From assembly GCA_905178155.1 (NCBI GenBank), contig CAJINV010000001.1:8504394-8568393 (forward strand): a stretch of 64,000 nt of DNA. The letters run 5' to 3'. This DNA is from Amoebophrya sp. A120. Its lineage: Eukaryota; Protista; Dinoflagellata. The notes under the pieces were generated by a model. That model saw only the letters and a program-made list of their open reading frames with translations, did not search any database and was not told where the DNA came from. Shown here piece after piece: positions 5,810-61,900 of the stretch; the first letter of the stretch is position 1; each line of letters begins with the position of its first letter. Made by a program: the position numbers and the translations under genes.

Positions 5810-7776
5810 ATGAGTTCCGCGTTTCCGGCGTCCTTCTCCGGGAACGGCGGGCAACGGTCCTCGGGTAGCGCCGTAAGTCCGCCGCGACCCACCACTCATT
5901 TTGACATTGCGGCTCCGACACCCTCCAGACCCCGTCGGTTAAGCGAACTGCAGGACCAGCTAGAGGAGCAGCGCTTGGCGCTGGAAAGAGTCAAGCGGGC
6001 CAGTGGTGCCTTTCTCGTGGAGAGAGCGTCCGCTCCGAGACCCGCTGCACGGGCATCTACTACATCGGAAAACATCAAAGCCGATGCTGAGTTCGTCTCG
6101 GCTGCCTTTGGCGATTCGTACAGGAAAGAGCCAGAGGAAAGGATTGATGGCCAGCACTTCCGTGTACACGAGAGCGCCGCGCGCACCACGGGGGCACAAT
6201 CTGCTTCCCTGGCGAGGAACACCGGCGCGCCGGAACAGGTGAAAAAAGCGCGGCAAGCCGTGGACTTCAATCTTCCTCGGGGAAGTTTGAAGTCCACGGG
6301 TTCCCCCACAACCCACCGTGCCTTCCCGACATGGATGGAGCGCGAATCGGAGGAGGAAGGGGAGGACGACGACTGCTGTACCAGGTTCCGGAAAAAGTTG
6401 AGCCGATTCGTGAAGCACCCCATGTTTGAGACGGTCATTCTGTTGCTCATCCTCGTCTATCCTGTGCAAAAGTATCGTACTCGTATAAATGCGAGTCTTG
6501 CATTACAAATCTTTTTCTTATCGTAAATCCGCACTACAAACTTTATAGTATCATGCTGAGGAAATTTGTAATGCATTTATACGAGTGCGATGCTTTTGCA
6601 TTTGATATCGTCGACCTCTTTGTCGTGCTCTCTTCCGAACAATCCAGCCACGAATTCCAGTTCAAAAGCCACCACGGCTACGGGAAGCAGACCCTCATCG
6701 TGGGGTACGACGAAGCGAACGATGTTTTGTTCATGGAGCCACCGACTTACCACCCACCTGCTGGAGGTACATCAGGAGGCCACAGCAGTTTCTCGTTTTT
6801 GGAAACTGAGGAAAGAACAGGGGTTCTTGCAGCGACTTCGATTTTGGTTCAGGATGGAGGAATTGCAGGATCTTCCGGGGGGCATGGTGTTCCGTTTCGT
6901 GTTCAGGCGGATGTGGAAAAACGCGCTGGAAGCGAAACTTCTGCCTCCACCGATGAGGCGATGACTGTCGAGGAAAAAATGGGTCTGGTCGTCGAAGATT
7001 TGTCCAGGGAACAAGGAAATTTGCCGGACAGTGGGGGCGCGCGGCGTCGGCGGCGAACTGAGGCCGGCGGAGATGATGATGACACTGCGCACCGGCACCA
7101 GAGCAGCGGATTTTTGGAAGTTAACAAGGTTGGGGAGAAGAAAACGGGCCGCACGACTACAAAACTGGGAAGAACAGCAACAGGAACGACAAAACACCAA
7201 GTTTCCAGCGGTCACCACGAGAAGCCATCGAAGGCGTTTATTAGTCGCGCGTGGAAATTGAACTTCATCACGGTGGTCATTTCCAAAATCCTGCTTTGCA
7301 TCTTCATGTTGGAGATCACACTGCACATCGTCGCGCACGGCTTCAAAGGCCACTTTCTGGAGGGCCACGGGCACTGGTTCACGTTGGTTGGCCACTGGAT
7401 TGACGCCATCGTCGTGCCGACAAGTTTTGTAATCGAATTCTTCTTCGAGGAGTCCATGCACGCCGCAGATCTGCTCATCGTCCTCCGGCTGTGGCGGTTC
7501 GTGCGGATTCTGGTCGGGTTTTACCAGTCTATCGCCGTGGTGGTGGACGAACAAGCGCGCTGTGAGAAGATGATCGAGATCACATCGCAGGTGAATCACT
7601 TTCTGTCCCAAAAGGGGTTGCATGACGAGTTCGAAACATACCTCGAAGAGCACGACGAGCATCAACACGGAGAAGAGGGGGACGCGAACGCCGGCAGTGC
7701 GAAAGAAAGCGCCTTGTCTGTCTTTCGCTCCTTGCAGAAAGGGTCTTTTCGCAGTGGGAAAGCGGACGCGGAGTAG
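5810..7776 (+). CDS. HVCN1: Voltage-gated proton channel Hv1; exons 5810-6457 and 6613-7776
   Basis: After removing the 6458-6607 element, S1 reads FETVILLLILVDLFVV with the selectivity Asp. S2 is ILLCIFMLEI, S3 is WIDAIVV and S4 is LIVLRLWRFVRI (the RxWRxxR Hv1 signature). No pore domain follows. Confidence 0.88.
6458..6607. mobile_element. Introner, 150 bp, TSD TCGTC
   Basis: Imperfect TIR tatcctgtgcaaaagtatcgtactcgtataaatgc / gcatttatacgagtgcgatgcttttgcatttgata. TCGTC at 6453-6457 and 6608-6612. Excision gives ...LILV|DLFV. Confidence 0.9.
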
Positions 7777-8656
7777 TTCTTGATGGGGAGTATTTATTGT
7801 TTTTTTATTCCATTGGTGTTGTCATATATGAAACCTTGTTTTTTCGTAGCGTTTAAGTAACATGTAAGATCGCATCTCAAGTACCATTTTTATTTTAACA
7901 TTGACCTCATTTAACATTGACACGACAGTCACAGTAATTGATAGAGTAAATCGCAAACTCAAGAAAAGACTACGCAGAAAGATTCTTTCGTGATCCTACA
8001 GATTCGGGATCAGCAGTAAAGTTCATTCATTACAAACCAAGACGAATTCTATGGTTGATGATGAAAGGAGACGCACTGCGACGGATGAAAAACAACAAGG
8101 CGGCTGCAGTGCCCCGCCCATAAGACCAGCCGCAGCAGGGAGCAGTTTTAGTGTACGTTTGCTGCTATCGGTGCTGCACTTTTTGTCTCGAAAGTTTACC
8201 AAAAACATCGAACATTGGTCGGTTGTACCGGAGCAGCTCCCTGTTTCACCGCATCTCGCAAAGGCAGGAGCTTTTATTCTCGGTGTCACGAAAGAACGTC
8301 CCGTAATAAAGTCCTCCGTCATGTCGGTTTGATCTCTGACTCTCGTGAAATTTAATTGGTCGCAATACCAGCAGCAGGCTTTCCTGCAGTTCATCGGAGA
8401 ACAAGTCTTTTCTTATTCCAACTATGCGAATTTCTCTTCTGCATTGCAGGTAAGTGGGACAGGAGTCCTCGTTGCATGGGGAACACTAGTTCTCTGTATT
8501 GACGAAGCACTTGGGAGGACACGCTTATACTATAGAAAAAAAATTGCAACTCCTTCAGGTCGTGTAAGTACTTTTCTCTTGCGTACTAACTTGCTGCAAT
8601 TTGATATTTCCAGCACTACATCAGTAGTATCCCCAGCAATTTTCCGCAGCCACAAA

Positions 8657-9924
8657 ATGAGTGCAAAAATCGATTGCCAAGAACGGAGTCCGATTCAAGA
8701 GAATGAAATCGTTCCCGGGCTACCGCCCGAAAGCGCCCGCGGAAGCAGTAGTCGGTCCAGGAACAAGAGCCCGCTTAGCAGTAAAGCCACGTCCCGAAAA
8801 GGCTCGAAGAAGCGGGCGCGGTCGGTGTCTCCGCAATCCCCGACGGCGGTGGAGAACGTCGGTGTGAGCCCCTCTGTGCGGGACTGGAACGACGTACCGG
8901 GGGCGATGATTGTTCCGATGGATCACGCCGGGGATCATATAGATGGTGGAAATTTGGATCCTACAAATGCAGAAACCAAAGAAAAATCAAAATCCTTCTG
9001 CATAGCCTTTCACCCGGCCGTGAAGAGCAAAGTTTCCGACGCCAAGAAAATCGTGCTCGTTTGCTGCCCGGGGAATGGGCTCGGGCCTGGCCCACTGGGG
9101 AGCTTCGGCCCGGACAAACTGTTCCTCAAGCTCGCGCAAGAGATGACGACCGCGTGCCGTACCTGCCGGAAGCACCGGCACTGCGAGATTTCGGTCGTCA
9201 ACGTCGTGTACCACCGGCGGGCGCAGGTGGAGCCGGCCGTCGAGGACGTCGTCGTCGCGGTCCAGTGGGTCGCGCGTCAGTTTCCGCCCGACACCATGGT
9301 CGTTTTGCTAGGTTGGTCCATGGGCGGCGCGGTCGTGATTGAAGCGGGGTATCGGGTGACGCAGACTTTGAAGGTCGTTCCACCCGAAAATTGTAGCATC
9401 ATCACGCTGGGCGGGCAGTCGGCCAAGGCGGGGAAGATTGTCGCTTTGCACGAAAAGACGCCACTGCTCATCCTTCAAGGGGGCGCCGACCGGTGTATCC
9501 GCCCGCAGTGTGGCATATCAAAAGTCAAAATGTCTGAGTCTGGAAACTTGTGATGCTGGGTGGCGTCTCATGATGACGCTACAAATGCTGTCTCAGCATG
9601 ACAAGTTTCTGAGCTCCTAGGTGTTGCCTATTCTGCATGACAAACTGCGCTTCTGCGTCACAGAAAAACGGAGCTCTTGGGTAACGTGCGTGACAGATTT
9701 AAGAGTCATGTCAGACAAGCATGACAGTCATGAATTCTTCCAGACCCAGACATTTTTACAGTTGATATGGCAGGGGCTTGTACAAAAGGAGCCTGGACGC
9801 GGGAAAAACCAATGTTTTCTACGAAGAGTTTCCGGAAGACAGTCACGACACCGAGACGGCTTACCAGTTTTTGATCAAGCAACAAAAACTGCTGGAGTTG
9901 CTGGGCGCAAAAAAGGAAAAGTAA
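8657..9924 (+). CDS. Alpha/beta-fold serine hydrolase interrupted by an introner
   Basis: Nucleophile elbow GWSMGG and acid loop LLILQGGAD. After excising 9516-9767 the frame continues RPQCGRGLYKR...EEFPEDSHD, supplying the probable catalytic His, to TAA at 9922-9924. Confidence 0.8.
9516..9767. mobile_element. Introner family A, 252 bp, TSD TGGCA
   Basis: TIR tatcaaaagtcaaaatgtctgagtctggaa / ttccagacccagacatttttacagttgata. TGGCA at 9511-9515 and 9768-9772. Confidence 0.92.
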
Positions 9925-11022: not shown

Positions 11023-14000
11023 ATGCGCGAATTCGTCGAGGCCTGCCTGGCGCAGGCCCGCGTGGATGCGGAAGAGATGCGGCCGCGCAACTTGCTCAGA
11101 AAGGGTCGATCCCGGGGCGAACGCATCTACATGCGGGTTGTGGGCCTGTGCGAGACCTCACTTCGCGGGTTTTTGGTGAAACTACCCCTGTTCCTGCTGG
11201 AGAGGATACCGCACGCCGCCTCGCTCTGCTCCATTGGGTATCTGTACGTGTTTGCGCAGTGCACGGGGATGGCGTGGATGCTGCTGCTGCATTTTGCTTC
11301 GGTGTTGACCCAGGCGTTCGCTCGCTGTCTAAAGGACAGCTCGGCGAGCTGTTTGCGACCGCCGGAACACATAGAAGCTTCAACACAAACAGCCGGATCA
11401 GCAGCGAGCTCAATTTTCTCGGCATCAGTGCAGAGTGGTGGAGAAAGGGAAAAGGGGACAACGACTAGCAAGTCCCCAGCAGACATTTCGATCATTGAGC
11501 CATGGAACTTCAACACACCATCAACGGAGACTTTGATCGTCTTCTACCTGTACTATGCCATGGGCCGCATGCTGATCTTCGTGGTCTACGGACTGTACAC
11601 CATTGGCTGGGAGTCCTTTCACGACTTCCCCACCGTGCGGAAGACGTATCCCACAGAAAAAAGCCGGCAGGGCATATTTGTAATGCAAAAATAAAAACAC
11701 AGAAAAACCTGTCATGGGCGGCCTCATAGCGTGCTGTTTAGGATACGCAATACAGATGTTTTTGTGTATTTATTTTTGCATTACAAATGTGAATGTCTAG
11801 AAAAAAAAAATCCAATAGAAATTCTCCCCCGCCCCAATAGAAATTCTCCATATAGAGAATCTCCCGCGTCGAGTCTTTCGGTTCCCGCTTTGTCTTCGAT
11901 TGCGTTTGATCTTCGCCTTCGCCTGGCGCAAAAGCTGTTGACCTTCCTCTGGCGCAAAAGCTGGCCGACTTTTTCAAAGTGCTCTTCTTGTTCCGTGCCC
12001 ATGGACGGGTAAAAAAGTTCCTGTGCATGTTTCGGCCTCGGGGGGTTCAGGTTTTTCGGGAAAGAAAGAATAACTCTGCAACGACCTGGCGGCCGGCGTA
12101 GGGGAAATAAAGAATATTCCCGCACAGTGCGCGCGCGCGGGCTTCTTTTTGAGCGGCCGGACGCTCTTGCTCGCCTATGCGCGGCATCTGGGTGGCGGCG
12201 TGGCGGAAATGAAAAAAATTTCTGCGCACTGCGTGGGCGCGGGCTTTTTCTTGTGAGCAGCCGGAGGCCCCTTATCGCCGGCCCGCGCGCCACATCGGTC
12301 TTGCGGCGTGCCGGTATCGGAAAATAAAAATGCGCGCCGTCGCCCGCGCGCCGCGCTTTGTAGCGATGTGGGATCGAAGTCTAAAAATTTTCGCGCGCTG
12401 CGCGCTTGCGAGTTTGCTTTTCTGAACGGCCGCGCACTCCCGCCGCCCGCGCGCCGCGTATGGTGGCGATTTGGGATCGAATTCAAAAAATTTTCGCGCG
12501 CGGCGCGCGCGCGAGTTTTTTTCTCTGAGCGGCCGCGCACCCCAGTCGCCCCCTTCGCGCGCCGCGCTCGGTGGTCATGCATGCGGAATCGAATTCGAAA
12601 AATTTCCGCGCGCGGCGCGCGCGCGAGTTTCTCTCCCTGAGCGGCCGCGCACCCCCGTCGCCCGCGCTTTGGCGATGCGGAGTCGAATCGAAAAAATTTT
12701 CGCGCGCTGCGCGCGCGTAAGTTTTTTTCCCTGAGCGGCCGGGCACCCCCATCGCCCGCGCGCTGTGTTTGCTTGCTTGGTGGCGGGGCGTGGGATCGAA
12801 TTCCAAAAAAATTTGCGCGCTGCGTGCGCCCGAATTTTTTTCCCCGAGCGGACGCGCACCCCCGTCGCCCGCGCGCCGTGCTTGGTGGCGATGGGTGTCT
12901 GTCGGGTCGAATTCAAAAAATTTTCGCGCGCCGCGCGCGCGCGAGTTTTTTCTCTGAGCGGCCGCGCATCCCGATCCCGGTCGCCTCCCTGCGCGCCGCG
13001 CATGGTGGCGATGGGTGTGCGGTCGAATTCAAAAAAATTGTGCGCGCTGCGCGCGCGCGATTTTTTTTCCCTGGGCGGCCGCGCATCCCCATCGCGTGCG
13101 CGCCGCGCTTGGTGTCGATAGATGTGGAGGCGAATTCAAAAAATTTTCCCGCGCTGCGCGCGCGCGAGTTTTTCTCCTTGGCCGGTCGCGTATGTCCGTC
13201 GCCCGCGCTTCGCGCTTCGTGGCGATAGATGTGGAGGCCAATGCAAAAAATTTTCGCGCGCCGCGCGCGCGAGAGTTTTTTTCCTTGGCAGGTCGCGCAT
13301 TTCCGTCGACCGCGCTTCGCGCCTGGTGGCGATGTGGGATCGAATTAAAAAAATTTTGCGCGTGGCGCGCGCGTTTCTTCTTCTACTGGGCGGCCGCGCA
13401 CTCCTTTGCGCGCGCCACACATGGTGGCGCGTTTGCTGGGATTCAAAAAAAGTTTCGCGCGTTGCTGTCGCGCGCGCGGGTTGTGGGGGGAATGGGTTAA
13501 ATTCTTTCGCGCGGGGTGCGGCTGCGTCGTGGTTGGGTCGGTGGAATGGGATAAATTCTCCTGCGCTGCGCGCCTGGAGTTCGTTTTTTCGAGCAGGCGG
13601 CGCGCGCTCCTTTTCGTGCGCCGCGGCTCTCGGCGTTGGTTGCGGGAATGAAAAAAAAAACTCCTCACGCTCCGCCCGCCTAGGCTTTTTCTTTCGTGCG
13701 CCCTTTTCCCGCGTGCCGCACCTAGATGGCGGCGGACCGGCGTTGTGGGGGCCCAAAAAAGTTTCGCCCTCTTTCGGGCAGGCGCGCGGACGTTCTCGTG
13801 TGTCGTGCCTGGCGCCGCAAAGTGGGCCGATCAAAGATTTTCGAGGAGCGCCGCGCGCGCCTACATTATCGCGCGTCACACCTAGTCGGTGTGGCCGTGC
13901 GTCGCGAAGATAATCTTCCGGGCTGCCGCTAGACGGCCTGGGCTGCGTACCTGTAGCCTTCCTGGGCAGGCTGCCCCTAGCATGATTGGGCTACCTCTGG

Positions 14001-17000
14001 CCTGCCGGGGCTGCCTAGCGAAGCCCGGCTTGCGGGTCTGCCGAGCAACAAAAGCCGATCTTGCTGGGCTGCCAGCCTTACGCACCTAGCAGAGCCTGGC
14101 CTGCTGGGCTGCCTGCCTAGGCTAGTTGCTAGGGCTGTCAGCCTAGCCGAGCACAGCCTGGCGCGCTAGGGCTGCTGGCCTAGCGAGGCACAGCCTGGCT
14201 TTGCTTGGGCTGGCAGCCTAGCAAAGCCTGGGTTGCTGGCTGGCAGCCATCTTAGATAGAGAGTCTCCATCTGAGATAGAGAATCTCTATCTCAGATGGA
14301 GAGTCTCTATTTCGGATGGAGAGTCTCTATTTCGGATGGAGAGTCTCTATTTCGGCTTCGCCACTGGTGGAGAAGCTGCTGAAATATAAGAAAAACACAT
14401 GGGAAAACAGTAAGAAACAGAAAAAGAAAAAAAAGAAAGAAAAAAGAATACAGATACTCTATCTCTCATGGAGAATTTCTATTCTCCTCCGAGAATCTCT
14501 ATTTCAAATAGAGACTCTCGGAGATTTTCTATTTCGAGAGCTGTACAATTGACCTTCCAGCTTTTTTCTGTGGGATAAGACGGTTTCCCTGTCCATGCGC
14601 GAGATCGCGGAGCGGTACACGGTATCAAATGTAAAAATGTCTGGGTCTGGAAGATTGCAAACTTGTCATGCTAAATCTGCAGCATGCAAAAATCTGTGTT
14701 GCATGATTAGCAAAAGTCGCCCGATTTTGACCAAGTCGGGAGGTAGTTTCTCATGCAGGATAGGCATTACAGAGGTCTCGCAGAATCTGTCATGCTAGGT
14801 CCGGCATTCCAGACCTCCTGGGTCATGGAAAAGCAGCATGACAAATCGCGCATTATTCCAGACCCAGACATTTTTACATTTGATACACGGTGCGGGTGAC
14901 GTGCCGGAGCCGCAGCCTGTCGCCGGCCGCGGGACTGGACAGCACGGCGACCTCCCGAACCTTCCCGCCGAACTCGTCCCACGCGAGCAGTGGTAGTCCG
15001 TTGGAAATCGACGAGTACCCGCCAATAGTAGACACGGATCGACCGAGCACCGCCTCCCTGGAGTCACGGTCGACGCGGGCGAATAGTTCCGGCGTCGGAA
15101 GCGATACCCTGGTGTCCTCGCACAAGATTGTGGACGAATTCGACCGGAGTGGGACCACCACGGCCACCGCGATAAGCGCGGTGACGGGAAAGGCCGCGCG
15201 GGTAGTAGAACTGAGCCCGAGAGAGAGCCAACTGCGGTCGGGCAGCAGTGTGACAGAGGAAACAGCGGGGCTCCGCCAGCGCCATCCGCAGAACGTTCGC
15301 AGCCACAACTCGTCCGCCAGTCAGATTGATGGCAGAAGTGCGGGCGATCGCGACAACAGGTCGGATATATTGAAGGATGGGCTGGAGATTGTGGATCATG
15401 GAACTGTCCACATGAAGGGCCCCACTACGCGGAGCCGCAGTATCCAGAGCGAGGTGTCGACCGAAGGTGAGGAGCCTATGACTCCAAATACGGAACAAGG
15501 GGCCAATGGCGCGGGAAACAATGCATTTTTCTCGTCAGAAGACGAGGAGCGAGCGAGGTTACGCCGGGAGAAGAAAAAAACCGGGGGTCGACGCGCGCTG
15601 CTGATACTTCCGCTTGTCTGGCTCTTCGTTTTGTGCGGCTGGCTCGCGGTCAGCAGCTTCTACTTCGACTTCACAGAGGGGTTATCTTCAGCAGATATGA
15701 GGAACAGCAGCAGTAGCACGCTGTCCATGTCGGAGAGTATCATGCGACCCACGGGGCGCCTCCACCGGTGCTTCCTGTTCCTGATGCTACTCTCGCTCGT
15801 CCAGTGGGCGGCGCAGTACCTGTTTCTGTTTCCAAATCTCTTTTCCGCTTTGCTCCTCACGCCGCGCAGCACGGCTTTGTTTGGGTTCTACTTCCTCTTT
15901 TCCATCATTGGCGGGGCGAGGCTAGTGTCCTGGTTCCTGTTTCCGCAGGGGAAGCAAACGAAAATGTTTTTCGGGGTCATCCCACACCACTTGCTGGATG
16001 TGGTGCTCGTGATGGCGTGGATGGGCTGGATGATGTGCACGTTGTTGCACTTGTTCGGTTCGCGGACGGCTTTCAAGCAGACCGGGTTTTTCAAGGAGCG
16101 GTTCAACGACGACCAGCTGTGGCGCAACCACATCGCGATTTTCAAAGTGACCTACATCGTCCCCTTGATTCTCCACTTCTTCCGGGGATCGCTCTTCTCC
16201 TCGCATTTGGGAATTCGGCACGCGATGAACGACTCGCTGATCATCATGGTGATGTACCCGCTGCTGCTGTTGTTGATTTGGACCGCGACGTTTCTGCTCG
16301 TCGCGGCCCTCCGCCGCGGCCGGCGCATCGGCATGCTGCAGCTCGCCACAATGGTGCCGCTCTGGTTCGTCAGTCAGTACGTCTGCTGGCGCTACTTGCA
16401 GCTGGAGTCGAAGTCAGCGATTTGTCTGGTCTGGGCGCATGGTGTGAGGCAGAGCTTACGGTTGTTCTCGCGAAAGACGCCCGCGTGGCTGGCCGCGGTG
16501 ACGAGGGATTTTTTCGCGCAGATAGATGCACTGCTAGGAAGGGAGCCGAATGTGGTTGACAGGAACAATACTAAGAAGCTGTCCGCCGCTGCGTCGCCCA
16601 CCTCCCCTGGCGTTTCGACGTTGTCAAAATCGAACCACGGTACTGCTACCGCGACGCCAATCTCCGCCGTCAAAGATGAGCCGGGGTTCGCTAGTAGCAA
16701 GCGCCGGGCGCGCATGTCCTCGCCGTCTCCGGAGAGTCCGATTTCAAAAATCAGTGTGGGCTTCGCGATGGGCAGCGCGGGAGATCCGCACGGGGAGCGG
16801 GACGAGGAGAACGAGAAAAATCCGATTATGAAGAAACCCAGACAGTCCATGCAGTACGTCATCGACGGGTACGGAAAGATGCTTTTAGTTTTGTCGGTGG
16901 TGTACCTCGGCACCTGTCTGTTCCTCGCTTTCGTCGGCGAGATGCAGCGAATCTACAACATTCTCCCCATGACGATCTCGATGCACACGAGCGCATCGGA

Positions 17001-19199
17001 CATCATCTCGTTTGAAGCGAACCAAAGGGGTGCGGCGGAGAACGGTGAACAGGAAGCCACTAGTTTGGCGGCAGGCGAGAGCGATAAAGTAGACACTAGC
17101 CTTTCTGGCGAACAAACAAGCGTCACACTACTCCCAGACCCGAACTTCGTTTCTGTGAGCCACGTCGTGAGCCACTTGCAGGTGAAACTCGCAGACGCGA
17201 AAAAGCAGAAAAGTTCCAATTGGGTCGGCGGCTTGCTAGCTTCCATCACCGGCGGGGATAAAGAACAAGCAGCGGTTTCTCTTTCCGGTGCATCTTCGAC
17301 AGCTCAAAGTACTGGGAAAAATCATCTCGGGGACCAGCAAGCGCAACCGCCGGACGGGAAGAGACCGGACGAGGATGGCAGCGAGGTAGAGTCAGAAGAC
17401 GTAAATGTCCTCTCTTCCACCTCGGCTGAACCTGGTAACGAATTCCGGAGCCGGAACCCGTTTTGGACGGTACCCAAGTACGCCGCCTGCGGCCAGCTCT
17501 ACCACGGGCTGACGCTGCTGGATTGGGCGCTGGTGGCGGAGAGCGTGTACCTCGAGTCGAAAGAGGAAAGGGAATATTTTCTGGAGAAAGTGGTTTTTCC
17601 GAATTCCTGGTACGAAAAGGACTTGTCGCAGCGGCCCCAGGTGCGCACGCACTCGTTCTCGAAGCACGGCAGTGCCGCATACATGGAGATTTTCTTTCCG
17701 GAGCAGGACATGACCGTGGTCGCGATTAAAGGTAAGTAACTAAAAGGGTCGATGTTGAGATTTCGAGATCTACAAGTAATTGATTTGGGATGCAATTAAG
17801 TTGTAGTTGTACACGGTAGTTAGAGTTACTTATTCGTTCTTCGGTTTTCAACGCAGTGAAGATCATCACCACATCACAGGTACCGACCCGCTGAAGTTGC
17901 TCGATTTCCTCGAGGACCTGCGGATGTGGCGCGATGCGGTGGTGGTCAGTTTGCTCGCAAACCTATTTCCCGCCGTTCGCGCCTGGCCAAAGGCGACGAC
18001 CGAGATGGTGATTCGGTTCCAGCACGAGTTTCTAGAGAATTTAGGCCTGGTCGAATCTCACTGGGCATTCGACGAGTTGCTGCACAAGTACGGCGGCAGT
18101 GAAACGGTACTAGTACAACCTACCGGGATCACAGAATTGCAGAACATCAAGTCGGAAAATGGTGTTTCCACGGCCTCGGCCGCGGCGAGTCCTGCCCCGC
18201 TTGATGCAGATGCTGCAGAGCCACCACCGCAAGAAAAAGAATTATCCGACGAGAATCCTCCTGCACCGAAGCCGTCAAAAACCGTGTTTGTGGGGCACAG
18301 CATGGGCGGAGGTATTGCCAGCATTCTCGGGTTATCAAATGCAAAAATGTCTGGGTCTGGAAGAATGCAAGTTTGTCATGCTTGTCTGGCATGACTCGAG
18401 GTCGAGAATGTGTGTTGCATAGGCACGAAAAAGCCCTCTTACCTGTCATGCAAAAACGCAGTTTGCCATGCGGAATACGTAAGACATGGTAGCCAAAAAA
18501 TTTGTCATGCATAGCTGCGTATTGCAGTGCGTCTACCATTCATTTTTAGCATTACAAGTTTCCTGACCCAGACATTTTTGCATTTGATACAGGTTTCTTA
18601 ACCACGCACCGGTAGTCGCTTTCCAGCCGCCCGGTGTGTACCACTCGATCGCGAAATTTCAGCAGGTAAAGCGGGACATGAAGGCGTATGACTTTGTGCA
18701 CCACGAAACTCTGAACATTCTGGTGGAAGACGACTGGATCAACAACGTGTTTGACGAGCACGGCGGTTTGTTGCAGCAAATCGGGTGCGATTACCCCAAT
18801 CGCAGCATGTACCTGAGCTGTCACCTGCTCGAGTCGGTAATCAACCACTTGTACAAGAGCTGCGGAGAGGACAGAGCGGACGACCTGGTGGAAATGGTCG
18901 AAGAGAAAATAGTTAAACCCGCGGGAGCAGGTAGTGCTGCCGCGTCTACCTCCACCAGCAAAGAGGCCGGCGTGACGAGGACCACAAAGGTAGAACGGCG
19001 CATCAGCAAGAAGCCGAAGCGGTTCGACTATGTGGAGTGGAAGTTTGAGGTGCTGACGCAAAGCACTTGGGACACGATTTCCGAGGAGGTTTCGACCTAT
19101 GTAAGATCGTCCACCTTCTACAGCTACTTTGTCGCGCTGTCCTCGTTCCGCTACACGGCCGCCTGTCTGGCGCTCGTCGCGGTGGTGCGGTTATTGTGA
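11023..19199 (+). CDS. Large multi-transmembrane class-3 lipase; exons ~11023-11646, 14583-14622, 14891-17731, 17880-18330, 18593-19199, with more upstream exons likely near 10.6-10.9 kb
   Basis: Three introners and a GT-AG intron (17732-17879) excise in frame. Lipase_3 motifs VVAIKGT, VGHSMGG and VVAFQPPG follow many hydrophobic segments. The start is uncertain. Confidence 0.8.
11676..11788. repeat. Internal inverted-repeat (MITE-like) module inside the giant introner
   Basis: atttgtaatgcaaaaataaaaacaca ... tgtgtatttatttttgcattacaaat. Confidence 0.8.
12200..13620. repeat. Tandem array of ~100-115 bp GC-rich, self-complementary units (roughly a dozen, degenerate at the edges)
   Basis: Recurring tcgaattcaaaaaattttcgcgcgc..gcgcgcgcgagtttttt..ctgagcggccgcgcaccccc.tcgccc...tggtggcgatg, with units starting near 12478, 12589, 12684, 12796, 12907, 13023, 13130 and 13340. 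Confidence 0.85.
13920..14250. repeat. Degenerate ~35-bp CTAG/GGCTG-rich tandem array
   Basis: Repeated gctagggctg.cagcctagc...cacagcctggc-like units. Confidence 0.7.
14250..14356. repeat. 20-bp tandem repeat
   Basis: gatggagagtctctatttcg occurs three times at 14295-14354, preceded by degenerate copies. Confidence 0.85.
14623..14885. mobile_element. Introner family A, 263 bp, TSD CACGG
   Basis: TIR tatcaaatgtaaaaatgtctgggtctggaa / ttccagacccagacatttttacatttgata. CACGG at 14618-14622 and 14886-14890. Excision joins into ORF 14890. Confidence 0.95.
18333..18589. mobile_element. Introner family A, 257 bp, TSD CGGGT/CAGGT; also removable as GT-AG intron 18331-18592
   Basis: TIR tatcaaatgcaaaaatgtctgggtc / gacccagacatttttgcatttgata. 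Excision gives ASILG|FLNHAPVVAFQPPG. Confidence 0.93.
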
Positions 19200-52330: not shown

Positions 52331-52867
52331 ATGTTACGAATGGACCAGTTGCTCGGCATAGCAGATCACTTTCCGTTTTCTGGTTTTCTGCACCCGCTTA
52401 CGCCAGCGGCGCAACGCGCAGCAGCAGCCCAGGCAAGCGTGCCGCCCCTTTCCGGCCACAGCGATTGTGATCAGCCAGTCCCTGCCGGTTTAGCGCGCTG
52501 GCGATGGCACGGACGAACCGCTCACCACACGTCCTCCTTCTACATCACTCCGGCGGAATTGCGCGAGGCACTGGATAGCCTTGACGAGAAACTGGACGAG
52601 GTGCAAAAATTGAACACTGATTGCGCGAACCTGCATACAATGCAGAGCGGGGACTTTTACGCCAAAGTGCAGAAGGTAGTGGAAAACGCTGACACGGTAG
52701 AAAAAGGTGCGGAACTACTGAAAACAACCGTCAAGGAGGCGCCCGACAACACGGCGCAAATTGGCGTCGGGCTACAGGACGCAAGTGTAGATTGCACAGG
52801 CTTCTCGGACTGCTTTAAGAAGGCGCAGGATGCCTGGAAGGCCCTTATTACAGCAGTGGAGTCGTAG
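52331..52867 (+). CDS. Hypothetical helical protein
   Basis: ORF with a coiled-coil-like C-terminal half (ELREALDSLDEKLDEVQKL). The start is uncertain. Confidence 0.45.
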   Translation: MLRMDQLLGIADHFPFSGFLHPLTPAAQRAAAAQASVPPLSGHSDCDQPVPAGLARWRWHGRTAHHTSSFYITPAELREALDSLDEKLDEVQKLNTDCANLHTMQSGDFYAKVQKVVENADTVEKGAELLKTTVKEAPDNTAQIGVGLQDASVDCTGFSDCFKKAQDAWKALITAVES

Positions 52868-53657: not shown

Positions 53658-55656
53658 ATGGACCTGCTGGCAAAAGCGTTGTTGCGAGGTGGGGGGCCCG
53701 ACTTTCGCGCTATAGCGGAGCAGGTACCCGTTGACCAGCTTAACGCCCCCTGCAAGAAACTCAAGGATGAAGCACCGTTGATTTTTGCCATCCAGAATCA
53801 AGATACCGATGCGGTCCTTGCGCTGGCGCACATGCCCGAAGTGGAGCTCACGGTCACGAGCGAGGAGGGAACCCCGGCCCTCCACGTTGCCATCGAAACG
53901 GGGTCCTTTCCGCTTTGCGAGGTCCTTTGCAGAGGTAATTTTGCAGTTTTGACAATGTAGAAGCAATACTGGTGGGTTCGGACAATATTGTTATTACTCT
54001 TACGATACTCATACTTGCTGTGCGTGAGTTTGCATATCTGCGGCATGGTCGTCCATGCAGAAACCGGAATGTCAAAGATCATCTATCATGTGTAAATTAT
54101 CACAAAAATAAACAGCTTTCATGTTTCAGGGTTACATGCCTAGCGAATGGGAAACGTACATTCTCGCCGGCAAGCAAGAAGATCCGCGAATATTGCAGCT
54201 GCTTTTCGATGGACGAGACCCAAAAAACAGCACATTCGTCCACCCCTTGAACGGCCGCACGTTGCTGCACGAACTTGTGCTTGAAGGTACTGTCCTTCCA
54301 ATGTAGTACTTCCTTGCATCTAGTATGTCGATAAGAAAAGTGGTTATAGTGATCTGGTTCTGCTGGTCCGTGACGTTGATTCAGTATATGCTTCGCGAAA
54401 CCTCCAACACTCCAGGCGCGACGGGGGGCGCTATCGAAGTTTGTCTGCGCTACAACATCTGCAACGTGAATGAAGTGGATCCCGACACGGGGGACACCCC
54501 TCTGGTCGCGGCGGTCCGGCGAAAGCACAACCATCTGCTGACGACGCTGATCGAGGGAGGGGCCGATGTTTGCTTCGAGGACGAGAAAACGGGGTTCACA
54601 GCGTTGCACGTGGCGGTACTACTGGGCGCGTCCCAGAAGGTGCAAGAGTTGCTCAAGGACGCCAGCGAGATACGAAATAAACTGGGCCAAAAGCCACAGG
54701 ATCTGCGAGCACAGCGCCTGCAAGAACTGGAAATGCAGGAGAAAGCGAAGGAACAGGTAGGTCAGTTGTGGTAGAGACAAAGATCAAGTAGTAGATTACA
54801 GTCTTTGGGAATGCACTGGGGTGAGCGTCTTGTTTCTGGGCACCTGTCGTATTGCTGCTGTTTCTGCGTTCTGGAAGGTTCACTGTCACGCTGCTGTTGT
54901 ATCTGTGTAACAAACGAAATCTCAGGCAAAAATTGCGAAGAGTAAGGCGCGGCGAGACAAGCGCCACGAAGAGCAGGAAGCGACGTACGATGCTAGTGAG
55001 ATCGCCGAGTTTCTCAAGAAATACGACATCACTGACGCCAGCGTGAGTATGCGATGTGAAAAAGCAAAAGTCTGCATTTGTACTTGCGGAAGAATTTTTG
55101 CATGAGAAAACAAAAGGGCGTGAACAGGCAAAAGTAGTTCTCGTTCGATTTTCCAGATCTCAAAAGTAAGTGCAATGCGGCGACGCAAACCTTTGTCCCC
55201 TTCATAGCGTAAGAAAAGCTTTGCCGTCGATACGAGTCTGTTGACCAGCTGCTCGAGGAGGCCGTCCCGAACAAGCTACGGAAACTCCTTAACAAGGCGG
55301 AAACCGACCAGCTCATGGAGGCTCTCGACAAGGAGGATGCGGAACGACAGCAGCGGGCGCTCGAGGACGCGGCAGAGCAGAGCGGTGATCGGCAGTGGAC
55401 GGCTATGGAACTCTTGTGCTGGCGCATCCTCGTGATCGCTGCGCCTTTTGTGGTGCTGGCCACGCTATACTTCGGGATCGAGGGAGACCGCGCCGCGGTG
55501 ACGAGCAGTGGGACACGTAGTAGTACCACCGGAAGTTCAGGTTCACCTTCAACTGCAAAAAGAAAAACGGGGGCAGCCGCTTCAGCAGCAGCAGGCAGTC
55601 GCACTGGCGAAAGAGGGAGGGGTACTACAGGCGGACGATACGCGCGACGCAAATAA
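53658..55656 (+). CDS. Ankyrin-repeat protein with a C-terminal transmembrane segment, multi-exon
   Basis: GTPALHVA, GRTLLHEL, GDTPLVAA and GFTALHVA ankyrin motifs lie across exons separated by GT-AG introns (donors near 53935, 54287, 54757, 55043). TM segment ILVIAAPFVVLATLYF. Confidence 0.75.
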
Positions 55657-56354
55657 ACCGATCCTCCGAAAAATGGACCGCCTGAACTCAAAGAAATTTC
55701 GTAGGATAGAAAGATGACAAGGATTGTTGAGTAAAACCGTAGCCGTCCGAAGATGCTGGATATTTCTTTGAGTCAGGTGACCCACTTTGCAGGATCGAGG
55801 ATTTTCCTTCGACAAACTAAAGCACGGACGACGCAGTAGTTCGCACTACGACGCTGACGTCAATGCCGATGAGCTGTAAAGATGGGAACGAAATATAGTA
55901 CTGCATCGTGCTGTGAAGTGAGTAATTAATGATTAGGTACAGCGATGGATTCGAATTAAGTTGTCGCATTCTGTGGAGTAGAAACCCTGCAATCCCCGTG
56001 CAATAAGTCATATGTGAACGAAGCATAGTGCAGGTGAACCGTAACTCGGAGTTCGAGTTTATCCTTGCGGTGGAATTATATCAGCGCTGACAGTCTGCAT
56101 CGTTCATCCGCCTCGATCAATATTTCCAGTTTCATACACCAAGAGGAAAGAAGATTAGACCGAGAGTCGCCCCCGCGGCTCCTCTTCATCAAACTTACGC
56201 TTCTTGGTGTTCCAACGGAGTCTTTCTCGCGTACCACTAGCTGGTAAGTTGTGATGTACACTAGTAATTCTAATTTTAATATCTATCGAAGTCAAAGTTG
56301 TGGAAGGATCGGTCTCGTTGCCAAGCGCACTACAAGAATCAGTCTACTCCGAGA

Positions 56355-58400
56355 ATGCGGGACGAGGAAGCGGCAGAACAGCGTGCGCAGCCCGGCGGGA
56401 GCAAAGACATAGACACGCTCGACGATGCCGAATTCCGGCGCGTCGACATCGTTTTTACGGATTTGGACGGCACCTTTTTCCCGGGGGCCTACGAGGAGGT
56501 TCCGCAGGAGGAGGCACGCATGTTTCGTCGGAATCTGAAGCTCGCGGAACAGTTGGAAAAGGAATTGCACATTCCCGTCGTGCCGGCCACGGGCAATAAT
56601 TTGGGCATCGCCCAAATGAAGTTCACGTCGACCGCCGCAAAGGACAAGGGTGCTGTCCTCCGCGACTTGAAAACGACGCCGGGGATCTACTGCAACGGGG
56701 CTTTGGTGAAGGGGGTGAACGTATCGAAAGGAAAAATCCCCCCTCCCCATATCGAAAACGAAATTTGTGATGCTGTATCTGAGTTCACAAATCGACTCGT
56801 CATGCTAGAAGGCCAAGAGCCGCAGTCGTGGCCTCGTTTGCAGGCAATTTGTCATGCTGTTTCCCAATCTCAGCTGCCTCCTATCATGCTGAAGATGCAA
56901 GGCTTCCCCACGCCACCCAGCACTACAGTCCGCATCTTTTCCCGTGTAGCATGACAAAGCTGATTTGTGACAACAAATCTGCATCACAGATTTCCGTTTT
57001 GATATGGGGAGGGGGGATTCTTCCTTTTGATAGAACGGGAAAGAAATAGCGGCGGAGATCGTTCCGAAGACGTTCGTGGAGAAGCTCACACAAACTGCGG
57101 CAAGGTTCGCGGAAGCGGTGGAACCGGGCGCGTGCTTCGCCGGCCTGGGGCGGGACGTTTGCTGGTTGCTTGACGTGCAGCAGGACGCTGTGCGCGAAAC
57201 CGGGAACAAATTCCTAGACCGGATGGGGCTCCTTCTGGCAGAGGACGAAAGTAGTGCTGCAAGCAGACGCAACTCGGGTGAAGAAGGAGCTCCGAAGTTC
57301 TACGAGTGGGTGTCGGATCCAGCTTTTCTGTCCTCGCAAGACTGCGACATCTTGAGCTTTTTGATTCTTTTTTCAAACCAGGGCGACTCGGAGACGCCAG
57401 CGGCGAAGGAAGTGAGGCTGCTGCGAGCGCAAGCCTTTTTGCAAGCCGAGGGCATTCTTGATTTTGGCCAGCATGGCGCGGAAAGGTTGGGAAACGGTGT
57501 GGGAGAAGGTGTCGTTTGCAAACACGTCCATGTTTATCAGGGGTAGTATGGGAAGAGGCTGCGTTCGTTTGGGTCTGTCAAACGCGAGGAACAGGGGACC
57601 CTGGTCCTAGTTAGGATGACAAAAAGAAGCCGTGCGTAGGGAACCAGATGGTAATTTTTTTGTTGAATACCAGTACCACCATATTGAAGCAAGGAGCTGC
57701 AGCTGCTCTTCCTTATTGTATGGTAATTGCAGGCGATGCCGATAGTATTTTCGGTTCGCATTCGGAGTTGCTCGGAAAAGAGCAGGCTCAGCGGCGCACG
57801 CTTTCCTTGCTCATACCCCTCCTGGTATCGGTCCAGAGATCGATATTTCACCTGACGGCGTGAATAAGGGGAGTGCAATTAGGAAGTTTCTCGAAGCAGG
57901 GGCTGGCGAAAATACTGGTACTGCGAAAACTGTCGCGGTTTTTGGCGATGCAGGTAACGACCTAGAGCTCTTCGGAGTGAAGCGTGGACCTTCGGCCGAG
58001 CTGTTGCCCTTATTCCAGGACGGTTTCGATTATCGACCGAAAATTCGTGTCGCCATGCCGTTATCCACCCTAACGGATGTGTCAGGGTCAGAGAAACAAG
58101 TTCAAGATGAAATTTGCACTGACAGGCAGAAAAGCCGCTGCGCCGAGCTGATTGAGCATAAAGGCATATACAATACTGAAAACGAGCGCAACGAGAATGA
58201 AATTTGCAATGACTTCTTGTTTCTACAAGGTACACGAGCTGTTTTCGCAAATATATTTGATGTTGTACTGTACCTGTATCCTGACCCTTTGACATGCATA
58301 GCTCTGGGCGAATGATAGTTTGTTGGTAAAGGACGCTACTATTGTTGACACGGTAGATAAGGTTTTGAAAAGGATTGTAAGCGCGAAGTCGAATCGGTAG
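56355..58400 (+). CDS. Cof-type HAD-superfamily hydrolase, multi-exon
   Basis: Motif I FTDLDGT, then VPATG, IYCNGA, EIDISPDGVNKG and motif IV FGDAGND. The last exon reads VAMP|WANDSLLVKDA to TAG at 58398-58400. Confidence 0.82.
56722..57032. mobile_element. Introner family D, 311 bp, TSD GAACG
   Basis: TIR tatcgaaaggaaaaatcccccctccccatatc / gatatggggaggggggattcttccttttgata. GAACG at 56717-56721 and 57033-57037. Excision gives KGVN|GKEIAAE. Confidence 0.94.
58062..58300. mobile_element. Degenerate introner-like intron, 239 bp
   Basis: Starts TATCC and ends GCATA, with a residual inverted match (tgtcagggtcag / ctgaccctttgaca). The flanks GCCGT/GCTCT differ at two positions. Removal restores a HAD-like C-terminus. 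Confidence 0.5.
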
Positions 58401-58977: not shown

Positions 58978-61900
58978 ATGGGGCGGCTCGTGGAAAAGTC
59001 GCTTCGCGGCCTGGCGCTGGTCGGCGCGCTGCCGCAAAATCAGGACTTTTTCGCACCCAGCACCGGTTGGGGCACGTCTTCTTCTAGTTCCTCAAGGTTT
59101 CCCAACCACAATAGGCTGTTCGCAACGGCGTCCAAAGTTCTTGAAGAAGGCGTCGGCAGTGTGGAAAACAAGCAGAGCGAAGAGCGGCATGCAGGAAGTT
59201 CCGGAAGGGATCATGCCGAGGGGGGAAGTAGTACTGGTGCAAGCAACTCCGCTGCGTCCAAAGCTGCAGCTTCTGCGACCGGCGGAAGTGGAGTCGGAGT
59301 GCAACCGCGAAAAGGTTCAGCAAGCCCCCCGCAGGCCACGACGCGGCGCACCGCGAAGATACCTGATAAAGATGCGCCGCACATGCACGGGGCGCGGCAG
59401 TTGAACGACCGGAGGCTTGTCGCAGAGGAGCAGGAGCACTCAAAACACGCTAGAAATTCAGGCACAGCAAAGACAAGCTCGCACGAAGCGGCCATTAACG
59501 AGAAAATAGACTACGGCATCTACGGCGAAGACAATTTCAACGAGGAAGGTTTCGACGTGGTTGGGGCTCGAGGCGAGCTTGCAATCCATAGAATACCTGC
59601 GTTTCAGGAAGAAACCATTTTGAGCGCTCGGGACCCGAATTACGAGACCAGTGCCGCATTTGATGAATACAAGAAGAAGGTACTAGCGTGACTTGTAAAT
59701 AAACGTTTTTTGTTGACGAACTTGCTGCGTGAAGTTTTTTTGTATCTTGTTTGAAACGAGAACAGAGGACAATTTAAAAGTTCCATTGATCATCTCCTGC
59801 AGCGCGAGCCGATCGTGAACCAGTTGCGAGAGCGAAAACTGAAGCAAATCCTGGAGACCGGCCCGCAAGGCGAACTTCGAGAACACGTGGACGAGGGCGA
59901 GCAAATAGCGCGGCCCGAGCTTCACCAAGACCCGGGAAAAACGTATGAGGAAATTGTGTTTTCCGACGGATCCGCGGTGCGGTTTCCCGGAAAAACGGAA
60001 AGAAGAACGCTGTCGAGTGTACGCAAATTTTAAATTTTTAGACAAAAAAAGCACCTTATTCTCTAGTAGCTCTTCCAAGCTGTCAGTAGGTGTTGGTGTT
60101 TGATGAAATGATAATGTCAAATAGTAAAAAACTAAAAAAATCGCATTACAGTCCCATCTTCCGCGACACGACCGGTTTCTTTTTGCCAATAGCACGACGC
60201 AGCTCGCGAGCCAGCGCGAGATGCTGTTGCAGATGGAGCGAAAAGTCGTAAACCTCGAGGACTACATATCCTGCGTAAAAACGTCCCCACCCCAGAGTTG
60301 TAATGCAGATTTGCAAAAACAGGAAGACTTGCAATGCGCATCCCCATGAGAGCCATTTCCAGTCGTGTTTTGGAATTTTTGATGCTGTAAACGGGATCAG
60401 CAGGTCGATTTGTGATGCGGCTTTCCTTGCTAACTTGCACTACCTTACGGACTGAAACTTGTCATGCGTGACTCACAAAACTCCTAGGCTTGTGTTGCAA
60501 AATCCCCATCCTGACTCTGGTGTGGGTACGTTTTTACTCAGGATACTACAGCAGCAAGCATTTTGACAAAAGTGCTTGGAAAAAGTCGCCGTTTACCGAG
60601 TACAAGCGAATGCTCTCCTCGCACCTAGGGACGGACAATTCGTTCACGACCATGGCCTACCGGCACCCCGAGCAGTGCGAGCGCAAGGAGTGCATAGCCA
60701 ACAGCGAACCAAATTGCAAGGAGCACCTGCCAGGGTATATGAGCAACTTTTCTTTATTCAACATCCCGGTGGAGTTTTGATTGTGTGTGTCTGCTTGGAG
60801 AAATCAATATGGTCCATCTCAGTATTTGCGGAGCACTCTGCCTTCACCCTGGTGTTGTTCCTAGCTTTTTTTGTATCGAATCAACTAAACTGACCAGGTT
60901 TTATCTGAAAGAGCGAGGATGTGCGGACCACGCAGACGGCGGAAAGAGGATATGCACTGACTGCCAATACTCTGCGGCCCTGGGCCAACCAACCATATGC
61001 CAGTGCGAAAAGACACCATACTCAACCAAGGTGCAATACAACGAGCCCTGCGACAGCTCCAGGTACTTGTTTGGTTTTTTCATCAGTGTCGCTCCTTTCA
61101 CGCCGCGTTTCCCCTCGTGTGAGATCCTGAATTCATCATCTAGATGACTCTACTTTCGCTTTCGCTATGTGAAGCGCAGATCAGTCTTTCCAAATAAACA
61201 CCCTGCAGAGTGTGTCTGGCCGGCGAGTGCTTTCGCCCGTGCGAGTTTTTTCTTCACGTGAGCACGTGCCCAGAGGAAAGGTGTATGTGGAACACGACCG
61301 CGTTGAACTGTGTTGATATCCCCGCTTCTATTGAGAGGAAAAATCCCCCCTCCCCATATTGAAAAGGTATGTTTCCAAAAATTTGCGTTGCGGATTTGAG
61401 GTCACAAATCACGTCTGTCTTGCAAGAAGACAAGAGCGGAAGCGTCCGCCCCATTATGGAAGCGATTTGTCATGCTGTTGGACCTAAAGGGGGGCCGTTT
61501 GCCATGCTGAGCTACTAGACCCGTTGCACGCCCCTACCTAGCCTGGGGATCTGGCCGCAGTGCCTCTCTGCAATACAAAGCTGAATTGTGGTCACAAATC
61601 AGCACCACAAGTTTCCGTTTTGATATGGGGAGGGGGGATGTTTCATTTTGATAGCTTCGCTGGTCTACACGGAATGGGCTTCGCTGGTGCTCGGCTCGGA
61701 GGCAACAGAGGGCGTGCGCGGACCGATCATACTTGCCGGCGTTTCAAAAACCATCTTTCCGCTAAACTTCGAAAAGTTCAACCAGATGTCCAGCACGTAT
61801 CGGATCATGGGAAATCCCATTACGCAATACATCACAATGGTATACACATTCAAGTACTTTTGTTCTTCTTCTTTGCTGGGTAATTGGAATTGCGTAATTT

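What the first reader, a model, noticed from the sequence alone, without database searches (positions are those of the whole stretch)
6458..61653. Thirteen exon-inserted TIR elements from several families that must be spliced out precisely (introner system)
Seen: 13 elements at 6458, 9516, 11647, 14623, 18333, 26317, 33240, 42166, 42552, 46117, 56722, 60267 and 61329. Each has TAT...ATA termini, TIRs and a 5-bp TSD. All lie in coding sequence, and I found none between genes. Removing the element plus one TSD restores the frame every time, including conserved residues (Hv1 Asp, hydrolase His, lipase VVAFQPPG). Sliding the junction through the TSD gives GT-AG only for the 18333 copy; others give ends such as GT-AC, GT-CG, CA-AG or CT-AG. 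Known: inverted/direct-repeat non-canonical introners have been described in Amoebophrya, so the class is not new. Inference: excision is guided by the TIR stem rather than by splice-site sequence, through a mechanism that to my knowledge is unresolved.
Basis: partly seen in the sequence, partly recalled or inferred. Interest (0 to 1): 0.8.

Follow-up and report, generated by a model that had tools for sequence, protein, structure and literature searches.

The report
Amoebophrya introners cut at fixed offset
These are the already published hairpin-shaped jumping elements that sit inside genes of the marine parasite Amoebophrya A120 and are missing, to the base, from RNA-like contigs despite lacking normal GT-AG ends; worn-down copies point to one likely cut position read from the element ends, which would make the unknown splicing machine testable.

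Summary
Observation confirmed: 13 TAT…ATA elements with terminal inverted repeats and 5-bp duplications (one mismatched) interrupt reading frames; removing element+5 nt restores each. An exon is 100% identical to an annotated Amoebophrya A120 protein, so these are Farhat et al.'s (2021) introners: already known. These place the cut 1 nt before TAT and 4 nt after ATA (one junction unique, two with two options). That gives N-U-A donors, like the host's GUA (10 of 10). In 133 oriented copies from another assembly, G at +1 (41, expected 41) and AG (9, expected 9.8) are not enriched, and both orientations are equally common. Eroded copies are cut exactly although their predicted terminal stem is gone, so 'stem, not sequence' is only partly supported. 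Best guess: a modified spliceosome reads the symmetric element ends (~0.55); the rival is a separate endonuclease-ligase (~0.3). This scan reported the same 1+4 rule before on other DNA of this genome; my paper searches did not find it stated.

The parts
6458..6607 (+). Introner, family E, TSD TCGTC, in an Hv1-like voltage-sensor gene; predicted intron 6457-6611 (CT..GT)
9516..9767 (+). Introner, family A, TSD TGGCA, in an alpha/beta hydrolase gene; predicted intron 9515-9771 (AT..GC)
11647..14577 (+). 2.9-kb introner, family D ends, TSD AGACG, internal 107-bp tandem array, no Pfam ORF, in a lipase-like gene; predicted intron 11646-14581 (GT..AC)
14623..14885 (+). Introner, family A, TSD CACGG, lipase-like gene; predicted intron 14622-14889 (GT..CG)
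   Evidence: join not shown
18333..18589 (+). Introner, family A, opposite orientation to 9516/33240; TSD CGGGT/CAGGT; the right-copy change creates GT-AG one base left of the 1+4 cut, giving the same mRNA
26317..26586 (+). Introner, family D-like ends, TSD GCACC; predicted intron 26316-26590 (CT..AC)
   Evidence: X3 contig length fits removal of 275 plus a 156-nt GT-AG intron
33240..33491 (+). Introner, family A, TSD ACAGC, in a Vps39-like gene; predicted intron 33239-33495 (CT..AG)
   Evidence: X3 contig breaks at the left-most junction position 33231, other side not listed
42166..42444 (+). Introner, family B, TSD GGACG; predicted intron 42165-42448 (GT..AC)
   Evidence: skip of 284 nt in 4 of 4 runs
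42552..42813 (+). Introner, family A, TSD CCGGT; predicted intron 42551-42817 (TT..GG)
   Evidence: skip of 267 nt in 4 of 4 runs
46117..47181 (+). Introner, family C, TSD TTTCT, with a nested ~735-nt insert bounded by direct repeats; predicted intron 46116-47185 (TT..TC)
   Evidence: contig coordinates contiguous across 46111|47182 in X4, X5, X6 (table 8)
56722..57032 (+). Introner, family C, TSD GAACG; predicted intron 56721-57036 (GT..AC); 97.7% identical copy in L015
   Evidence: join not among the rows shown (3 rows hidden)
60267..60545 (+). Introner, family B, opposite orientation to 42166 (89.6% identical), TSD CTACA; predicted intron 60266-60549 (AT..AC)
   Evidence: skip of 284 nt in X3 and X4
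61329..61653 (+). Introner, family C, TSD GCTTC; predicted intron 61328-61657 (CT..TT)
   Evidence: skip of 330 nt in 4 of 4 runs
55047..55210 (+).
   Evidence: joint 55046>55211, both=0, 4 of 4 runs
55638..55818 (+). Eroded non-canonical intron A-TAC...ACA-AACT with a family-C-like right end; fits 1+4 or 0+5
   Evidence: joint 55637>55819, both=1, 4 of 4 runs
58061..58304 (+). Eroded non-canonical intron T-TAT...ATA-GCTC in a HAD-hydrolase-like gene; fits 1+4 or 0+5
   Evidence: joint 58060>58305, both=1, 4 of 4 runs (shorter side 29 nt in three runs, 81 in one)

Best explanation
These are Amoebophrya A120 introners, short inverted-repeat transposon copies flanked by a 5-base duplication that are missing exactly from RNA-like contigs, and they are likely cut from the pre-mRNA at one fixed position (one base before TAT, four after ATA), most likely by a modified host spliceosome that reads the element's own ends instead of GT-AG. 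Shown: the anatomy, frame restoration, exact skipping in contigs, near-identical copies elsewhere, both orientations in genes, and no preference for G+1 or AG. Inferred steps: (1) a DDE-type transposase encoded elsewhere inserts the element with a 5-bp duplication; the shared subterminal TTGTNATGC motif is its likely binding site. (2) The RNA hairpin brings the two ends together, standing in for U1-based recognition (U1 was not found by Farhat et al.). (3) The 5' cut falls one base before the TAT, so the element supplies U+2/A+3/U+4, as in the host's GUA donors. (4) The 3' cut is measured from the ATA (A-7 is a candidate branch or ruler base), four bases into the second duplication copy. Exactly one duplication copy is left, and the ends are symmetric, so any site and either orientation would be spliceable. 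Odds: A120 introner identity ~0.97; 1+4 register ~0.85; spliceosome as catalyst ~0.55.
For: Identity: exon 100% identical to A120 protein P0001. The five-exon model equals P0001 over 1520 aa, and A25 ortholog P0002 aligns without a gap at the three element junctions. Anatomy matches Farhat section 11: TAT+N7+AAA inverted repeats, 3-5 nt direct repeats. Removal: exact skips for 42166, 42552, 60267, 61329 and 46117 in contigs that also skip GT-AG introns; lengths fit for 18333 and 26317, and the left break fits for 33240. DNA-like run X1 runs into the element ends at unique-copy depth (table 8). Register: 55047 unique 1+4; 55638 and 58061 allow 1+4 or 0+5; 18333 allows four positions including 1+4. 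Donor likeness: 10 of 10 GT-AG introns here begin GTA (8 seen as joints, 2 by length), 3 of 3 eroded introns begin NTA. In Farhat Table S4, 9 of 9 predominant A120 pairs have T at +2 and 9 of 9 A25 pairs begin TT, where IRs start TTA. Second assembly (136 loci, 411 kb): frame continuity after removing element+5 in 55 of 57 clear same-strand calls; orientation 42:46 among the 88 assignable copies. A120 keeps nearly all spliceosomal proteins and U2/U4/U5/U6. Precedent: the U2 spliceosome removes TIR-derived non-GT/AG introns in Fritillaria.
Against: No tool tested the catalyst. The register rests on one unique junction plus three partly ambiguous ones, and I derived it from those same junctions. 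In 133 oriented copies there is no enrichment of G+1 (41 vs 41) or AG (9 vs 9.8) and no coupling of +1 with -1 (p=0.77), although spliceosome chemistry is said to depend on a non-Watson-Crick pair between the intron's end bases. Young elements are predicted to bury +2..+4 and -7..-5 in a stem (P 0.84-1.0), which would have to be unwound. A at -7 is found in only 6 of 10 canonical introns, and there is no branch consensus beyond [G/C]AT. All joints come from contigs of one sample and study whose RNA status is a guess, and hairpins between direct repeats are a known RT artefact. No transposase was found.
Confidence: 0.55

Rival explanations
1. Same elements and same 1+4 cut, but removal is by a separate non-spliceosomal endonuclease plus ligase that binds the hairpin and its TAT/ATA ends, as proposed for euglenid nonconventional introns. 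This is.
For: Complete indifference to +1, -1 and -2 and no +1/-1 coupling. Both orientations are used. Strong terminal stems, z -5 to -12 in 11 of 11 folded young elements. U1 not found. Euglenid TIR introns are released as full-length circles without lariats (review passage). Eroded introns keep a subterminal stem (14-25 expected pairs).
Against: Three eroded copies are cut exactly although their terminal pairs are predicted unpaired; two have MFE z of only -0.9 and -1.8. The kept 5' bases (U+2, A+3) are those of host GUA donors, in two strains whose TIRs differ (TAT vs TTA). 2 of 10 canonical introns show as much end pairing as the eroded ones.
Confidence: 0.3
2. The skips are largely reverse-transcriptase slippage across hairpins flanked by direct repeats (falsitrons), and real transcripts keep the elements or are rarely spliced.
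For: Young copies have exactly that geometry, and all evidence is cDNA-based or derived from it. X9 raw reads carry a family-A end joined to foreign flanking sequence, that is unspliced (table 7).
Against: 55047-55210 is skipped with no direct repeat (both=0) and no terminal stem. Retention would stop all 13 frames. The lipase-like protein stays conserved and contiguous with A25 on both sides of three elements. Element sites are enriched in coding sequence.
Confidence: 0.07
3. Elements are excised from DNA in the expressing life stage (like ciliate IES removal), or self-splice as ribozymes.
For: Removing the element plus one duplication copy is the geometry of precise DNA excision (recalled from ciliates, not tested).
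Against: DNA-like run X1 holds the element ends at unique-copy depth, and no exon-exon join is among its listed joints (173 rows hidden). There is no Rfam hit in the window. The families share no interior sequence beyond a 9-mer, and eroded copies still work.
Confidence: 0.04

Closest known systems
Introner elements / non-canonical introns of Amoebophrya sp. A120 (Farhat et al. 2021, PMC7789003; seen: abstract, sections 10, 11, 12, 16, 25, passages, supplement passages incl. Table S4)
   Same: Same organism; IRs starting TAT+N7+AAA, 3-5 nt direct repeats, hairpins, many families, non-GT-AG ends, no transposase inside.
   Different: [quoted passage not shown] Supplement figures (S19-S25) could not be seen, only legends, and may show part of this.
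A120 introners as TIR DNA transposons (Gozashti et al. 2025, PMC12130899; seen: passages)
   Same: A120 introners include diverse TIR DNA transposons, mostly non-autonomous; one family has a Copia-like integrase region.
   Different: No autonomous partner found here; the passages seen do not give a splice register; datasets not read.
Fritillaria borealis non-canonical introns (review PMC11282704 passages; bioRxiv 10.1101/2025.08.15.670264 abstract, sections 3 and 14)
   Same: TIR/TSD transposon-derived non-GT/AG introns removed by a U2-type spliceosome.
   Different: Fritillaria keeps biased ends (AG-AC, AG-AT), keeps U1 and has duplicated U2AF. Here the end bases match background composition and U1 was not found.
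Euglenid nonconventional introns (review PMC11282704 passages only)
   Same: Stem joining the ends, conserved bases a few nt inside each end, TSD-like repeats, non-canonical junctions.
   Different: Different end code (CAG +4..6 / CTG -8..-6, Y|R borders); released as circles. The product is untested here.
Canonical-site introners of Micromonas, Aureococcus, Symbiodinium (PMC9860276 passages)
   Same: MITE-like elements with TIR and TSD that become introns by taking splice-site bases from the TSD.
   Different: Those need GY/AG from the element or TSD; here only 6 of 133 copies can form GT-AG in any register.

Membership tests
Amoebophrya A120 introner elements | Host is Amoebophrya A120 | tested here: met
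   946-aa exon 100% identical to an A120 protein; model equals it over 1520 aa
Amoebophrya A120 introner elements | Terminal inverted repeat starting TAT, about 7 variable nt, then an A-run | tested here: met
   Strict TAT-N7-AAA at the left end of 11 of 13 and its complement at the right end of 11 of 13; every element has it on at least one end
Amoebophrya A120 introner elements | 3-5 nt direct repeat at the borders | tested here: met
   12 of 13 perfect 5-mers, 1 with one mismatch; 160 of 219 strong-TIR candidates in other loci have an exact 5-nt repeat
Amoebophrya A120 introner elements | Repeated, in families | tested here: met
   Families A, B, C have several members in the window; copies up to 97.7% identical in other loci
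Amoebophrya A120 introner elements | Absent from mature transcripts with non-GT-AG ends | tested here: met
Contigs of one study, RNA status guessed
Non-autonomous TIR DNA transposon (MITE) | TIR, fixed-length TSD, no coding capacity, both orientations | tested here: met
Non-autonomous TIR DNA transposon (MITE) | Cognate autonomous element with transposase (defines the superfamily) | tested here: inconclusive
   No Pfam hit in ORFs of the long elements; whole genome not held
U2-type spliceosomal intron | GT(GC)-AG termini | tested here: not met
   1 of 13 here; 6 of 133 in any register, 2 of 133 in the 1+4 register
U2-type spliceosomal intron | Donor bases +2/+3 as in host canonical introns (U, A) | tested here: met
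   10 of 10 canonical GTA; 3 of 3 eroded NTA at junctions fixed by contigs
U2-type spliceosomal intron | Branch point, lariat product, snRNP dependence | not testable with these tools
   Needs lariat sequencing or inhibition experiments
Euglenid nonconventional intron | CAG at +4..6, CTG at -8..-6, Y|R borders | tested here: not met
   Ends are N-TAT and ATA-NNNN with free border bases
Euglenid nonconventional intron | Release as full-length circle | not testable with these tools
   No raw reads of this strain covered the exons

The most novel reading that the evidence does not exclude
Amoebophrya has a splicing code with no constraint on the intron's first, last or second-last base: the cut is read from U+2/A+3 and from an A seven bases before the end, both supplied by the transposon's symmetric terminus. 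Any 5-bp-TSD element would then be a perfect intron at any site, in either orientation. This would mean either a spliceosome that has dropped the conserved terminal base pair or a second, undescribed nuclear splicing machine.
Probability: 0.6. Interest if true: 0.8.

Novelty: already known. Interest (0 to 1): 0.5.

Why it matters
The elements are published, but how they are spliced is open. A fixed 1+4 cut turns vague 'variable' borders into exact predicted donor, acceptor and candidate branch positions for tens of thousands of introns (29,850 in Farhat et al.). That allows lariat mapping, snRNA pairing models, reporter mutagenesis and correct gene annotation. If end bases really are unconstrained, it tests how far spliceosome chemistry can be relaxed, and it explains how transposons can flood exons without harm.

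Tried and rejected
No whole genome held, so no genome-wide count. No holder run is on record as RNA. Raw RNA runs X9 and X10 covered only element ends, not exons, so they say nothing on splicing or retention here. In one search the joint table was swamped by repeat copies from X1 (15 rows shown, 173 hidden); I used table 8 and length arithmetic instead. Elements 6458, 9516 and 11647 were never laid on reads. The hydrolase homolog search gave one 229-aa hit that does not reach the 9516 junction. The PDB search aligned only S2-S4 of the Hv1-like domain. Rfam: 0 hits. Transposase search in long elements: no Pfam hit in 6 ORFs or in 3 more from the two long window elements. BLAST of elements against the window found no fragments outside the 16 introns; eroded introns and the two large inserts had no hits in the 136 loci. 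Selection for GT/AG within TSDs was tested and rejected. Mismatched TSDs in the second assembly (10 of 133) were too few, and have no RNA, to place the cut. The 'any open frame' count (239 of 248) is uninformative and was replaced by a two-sided frame test: 240 testable, 172 unclear, 11 strand-discordant, 55 of the remaining 57 in frame. A at -7 in canonical introns: 6 of 10, not convincing. Paper searches for a stated register or mechanism returned nothing beyond Farhat 2021, Gozashti 2022/2025 and reviews. Roy 2023, Henriet 2019 and Guminska 2021 were not read (seen only as citations or through a review); subscription journals are mostly outside the library.


Full report
Observation. All 13 elements exist at the stated starts, with TAT and ATA termini and inverted repeats. 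Twelve have a perfect 5-bp duplication; 18333 has CGGGT/CAGGT. A strict scan found 11 of them in the window and one hit in 20 shuffled windows. Removing element plus 5 nt gives an open + strand frame in 13 of 13; keeping it gives a stop within 2-77 codons in 13 of 13. Only 18333 slides to GT-AG. They form families A (9516, 14623, 18333, 33240, 42552), B (42166, 60267; 89.6% identical, opposite orientation) and C (46117, 56722, 61329), plus 6458 and the pair 11647/26317 that share only end motifs. A 9-mer, TTGTNATGC or its complement, occurs in all 13; 33 of its 35 window copies lie in the 11% of the window that the elements cover.

Identity. A 946-aa exon is 100% identical to an annotated Amoebophrya sp. 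A120 protein, with an A25 ortholog at 45% over its best local alignment. My five-exon model (cutting 11647, 14623, 18333 and one GT-AG intron) equals that protein over 1520 aa, and the A25 protein aligns without a gap at each junction. The A120 annotation was built from transcripts, so it is not independent of cDNA; the ortholog is. Farhat et al. describe A120 introners with TAT+N7+AAA inverted repeats, 3-5 nt direct repeats, 29,850 copies in 1,954 families, and no U1 snRNA found. The class and these elements are therefore known.

Are they removed? Ten of the 13 were laid on runs. In four contig sets of one sample and study (RNA by guess, but they also skip 8 GT-AG introns), exact element+5 skips appear for 42166, 42552 and 61329 (4 of 4 runs), 60267 (2 of 4) and 46117 (3 of 4, table 8); 56722 is not among the rows shown. 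In one search, X3 contig lengths fit removal of 18333 and 26317 together with GT-AG introns of 148 and 156 nt. The contig breaks at the left-most junction position of 33240; 14623 is not shown. The DNA-like run X1 runs into the element ends without differences at unique-copy depth. Raw reads X9 and X10 did not cover exons. Contigs show presence, not the share of spliced molecules.

The cut position. 55047-55210 reads G-TAT...ATA-GCGT with no sliding ambiguity. 58061-58304 (T-TAT...ATA-GCTC) and 55638-55818 (A-TAC...ACA-AACT) each allow two positions. At 18333 the contig and the ortholog residue (ILG|FLN) exclude the two left-most positions. The only position common to all four is one base before TAT and four after ATA. 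This rests on one unique junction and was derived from these same cases. Outside checks: in Farhat Table S4, 9 of 9 predominant A120 pairs have T at +2, and 9 of 9 A25 pairs begin TT where the repeats begin TTA; each row is only 2-5% of introns, and border placement there is uncertain. Eight earlier scan notes report the same 1+4 rule on other DNA of this genome. I had written that reading before opening them; they are unchecked AI notes, not support.

What the ends do and do not need. One metagenome scan with the family-A end gave 136 loci, 411 kb (scan truncated, loci biased to family A). They hold 314 candidate elements, 279 with at most one TSD mismatch. Of these, 248 had enough flank and 133 could be oriented by a codon model trained on the window. 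In those 133, G at +1 is 41 (expected 41.0), AG at -2/-1 is 9 (expected 9.8), no TSD position departs from flank composition, and +1 is not coupled to -1 (p=0.77). Only 6 of 133 can give GT-AG in any register. Orientation relative to the gene is 42:46 among 88 assignable copies. Frame continuity after removing element+5 holds in 55 of 57 clear same-strand calls, with 172 unclear and 11 strand-discordant of 240. Non-coding-like flanks occur at 48 of 271 elements versus 830 of 1500 random sites. TAT and ATA were required by my scan, so their conservation in that set is by construction.

Stem or sequence. The 11 folded young elements form strong hairpins (z -5 to -12) with the TAT/ATA pairs predicted closed. 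In the three eroded introns those pairs have probability about 0, and z is -0.9, -5.5 and -1.8, though a subterminal stem of 14-25 pairs remains. They are still skipped exactly, keeping U+2, A+3, A-7 and A-5. All 10 GT-AG introns seen or inferred here begin GTA; 6 of 10 have A at -7. So the end sequence likely sets the cut and the stem likely bridges the ends. These are predicted folds and n=3.

Mechanism. I favour a modified U2-type spliceosome (~0.55): the kept donor bases are the host's, the pattern holds in two strains with different repeats, nearly all spliceosome parts are present, and Fritillaria is a precedent. Against it stand the complete freedom of +1, -1 and -2, which conflicts with the terminal non-Watson-Crick pair, and the need to unwind the stem. 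A separate hairpin-binding nuclease and ligase, as suspected in euglenids, gets ~0.3. RT slippage may inflate skips of young copies but cannot explain 55047-55210 or conserved frames (~0.07). DNA excision or self-splicing ~0.04. Mobilisation by an unidentified DDE transposase is inferred; none was found.

Literature seen. Farhat 2021: abstract, sections 10, 11, 12, 16, 25, passages and supplement text; supplement figures were not visible and may show the border offsets. Gozashti 2025 and 2022, the Mob DNA 2024 review, the G3 2025 Kv genome (canonical introns and U1 present in that strain) and the falsitron paper: passages. Tunicate preprint: abstract and sections 3 and 14; its supplements are closed. 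Searches for a stated register. Family letters A-E are my labels; the Hv1 Asp, hydrolase His and ciliate IES comparison are recalled.

Verdict. A real, published system. The added value is the exact register, the shown indifference to border bases and the orientation symmetry, which make the open mechanism testable. Interest 0.5.

Noticed in passing
window, all 13 elements; L001-L136: Subterminal 9-mer TTGTNATGC/GCATNACAA is shared across unrelated TIR families: 33 of 35 window copies inside elements; 637 in 80 kb inside versus 406 in 332 kb outside detected elements in the loci. No exact copy in the three eroded introns, so likely a transposase site rather than a splicing signal.
   Followed up: partly
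window 11647-14577: The 2.9-kb element is filled with tandem arrays (107-bp x10 at 12337-13401, 37-bp, 20-bp palindromic) and an inner inverted repeat at 11673-11791; no Pfam ORF; no match in the 136 loci.
   Followed up: partly
window 46385-47119: About 735-nt insert nested in a family-C element, with a 25-nt unit three times on the left and once on the right; RNA-like contigs match it with differences, so it is likely a repeat present elsewhere.
   Followed up: partly
window 18328-18594: A single change in the right duplication copy turned this introner into a GT-AG intron that yields the same mRNA; a possible route from non-canonical to canonical intron.
   Followed up: yes
L001-L136: Slight phase-0 excess among 133 oriented copies in the 1+4 register (59/38/36, p=0.026); may be a classifier effect.
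   Followed up: no
L068 476-2934: 2459-bp span with matching 5-bp repeats and TIR 16/20 holding a 415-aa ORF without Pfam hit; a candidate long element or a chance pairing of two ends.
   Followed up: partly
window 14623-14706 (run X9): 71 raw reads join a family-A end to a flank not in this window, while exons are uncovered: a related strain seems to carry the family at another site, unspliced or as DNA.
   Followed up: no
window canonical introns, 17732-61208: The 10 GT-AG introns all start GTA and end CAG, with A/C-rich 3' ends and no clear polypyrimidine tract.
   Followed up: partly
window 63589-63863: Tandem and inverted arrays (21-, 14-, 17-bp units) near the window end; possibly the interior of another large element.
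   Followed up: no
window 1356-58312: All identified genes lie on the + strand: Myb/Bdp1-like (1356), RRM (4490), Hv1-like, hydrolase, lipase-like, GNAT (28721), Vps39-like, a 1796-codon kinase exon without introners (36003-41390), ankyrin, HAD; a sub-threshold toxofilin-like hit (E=0.0066) at 52193-52864.
   Followed up: no
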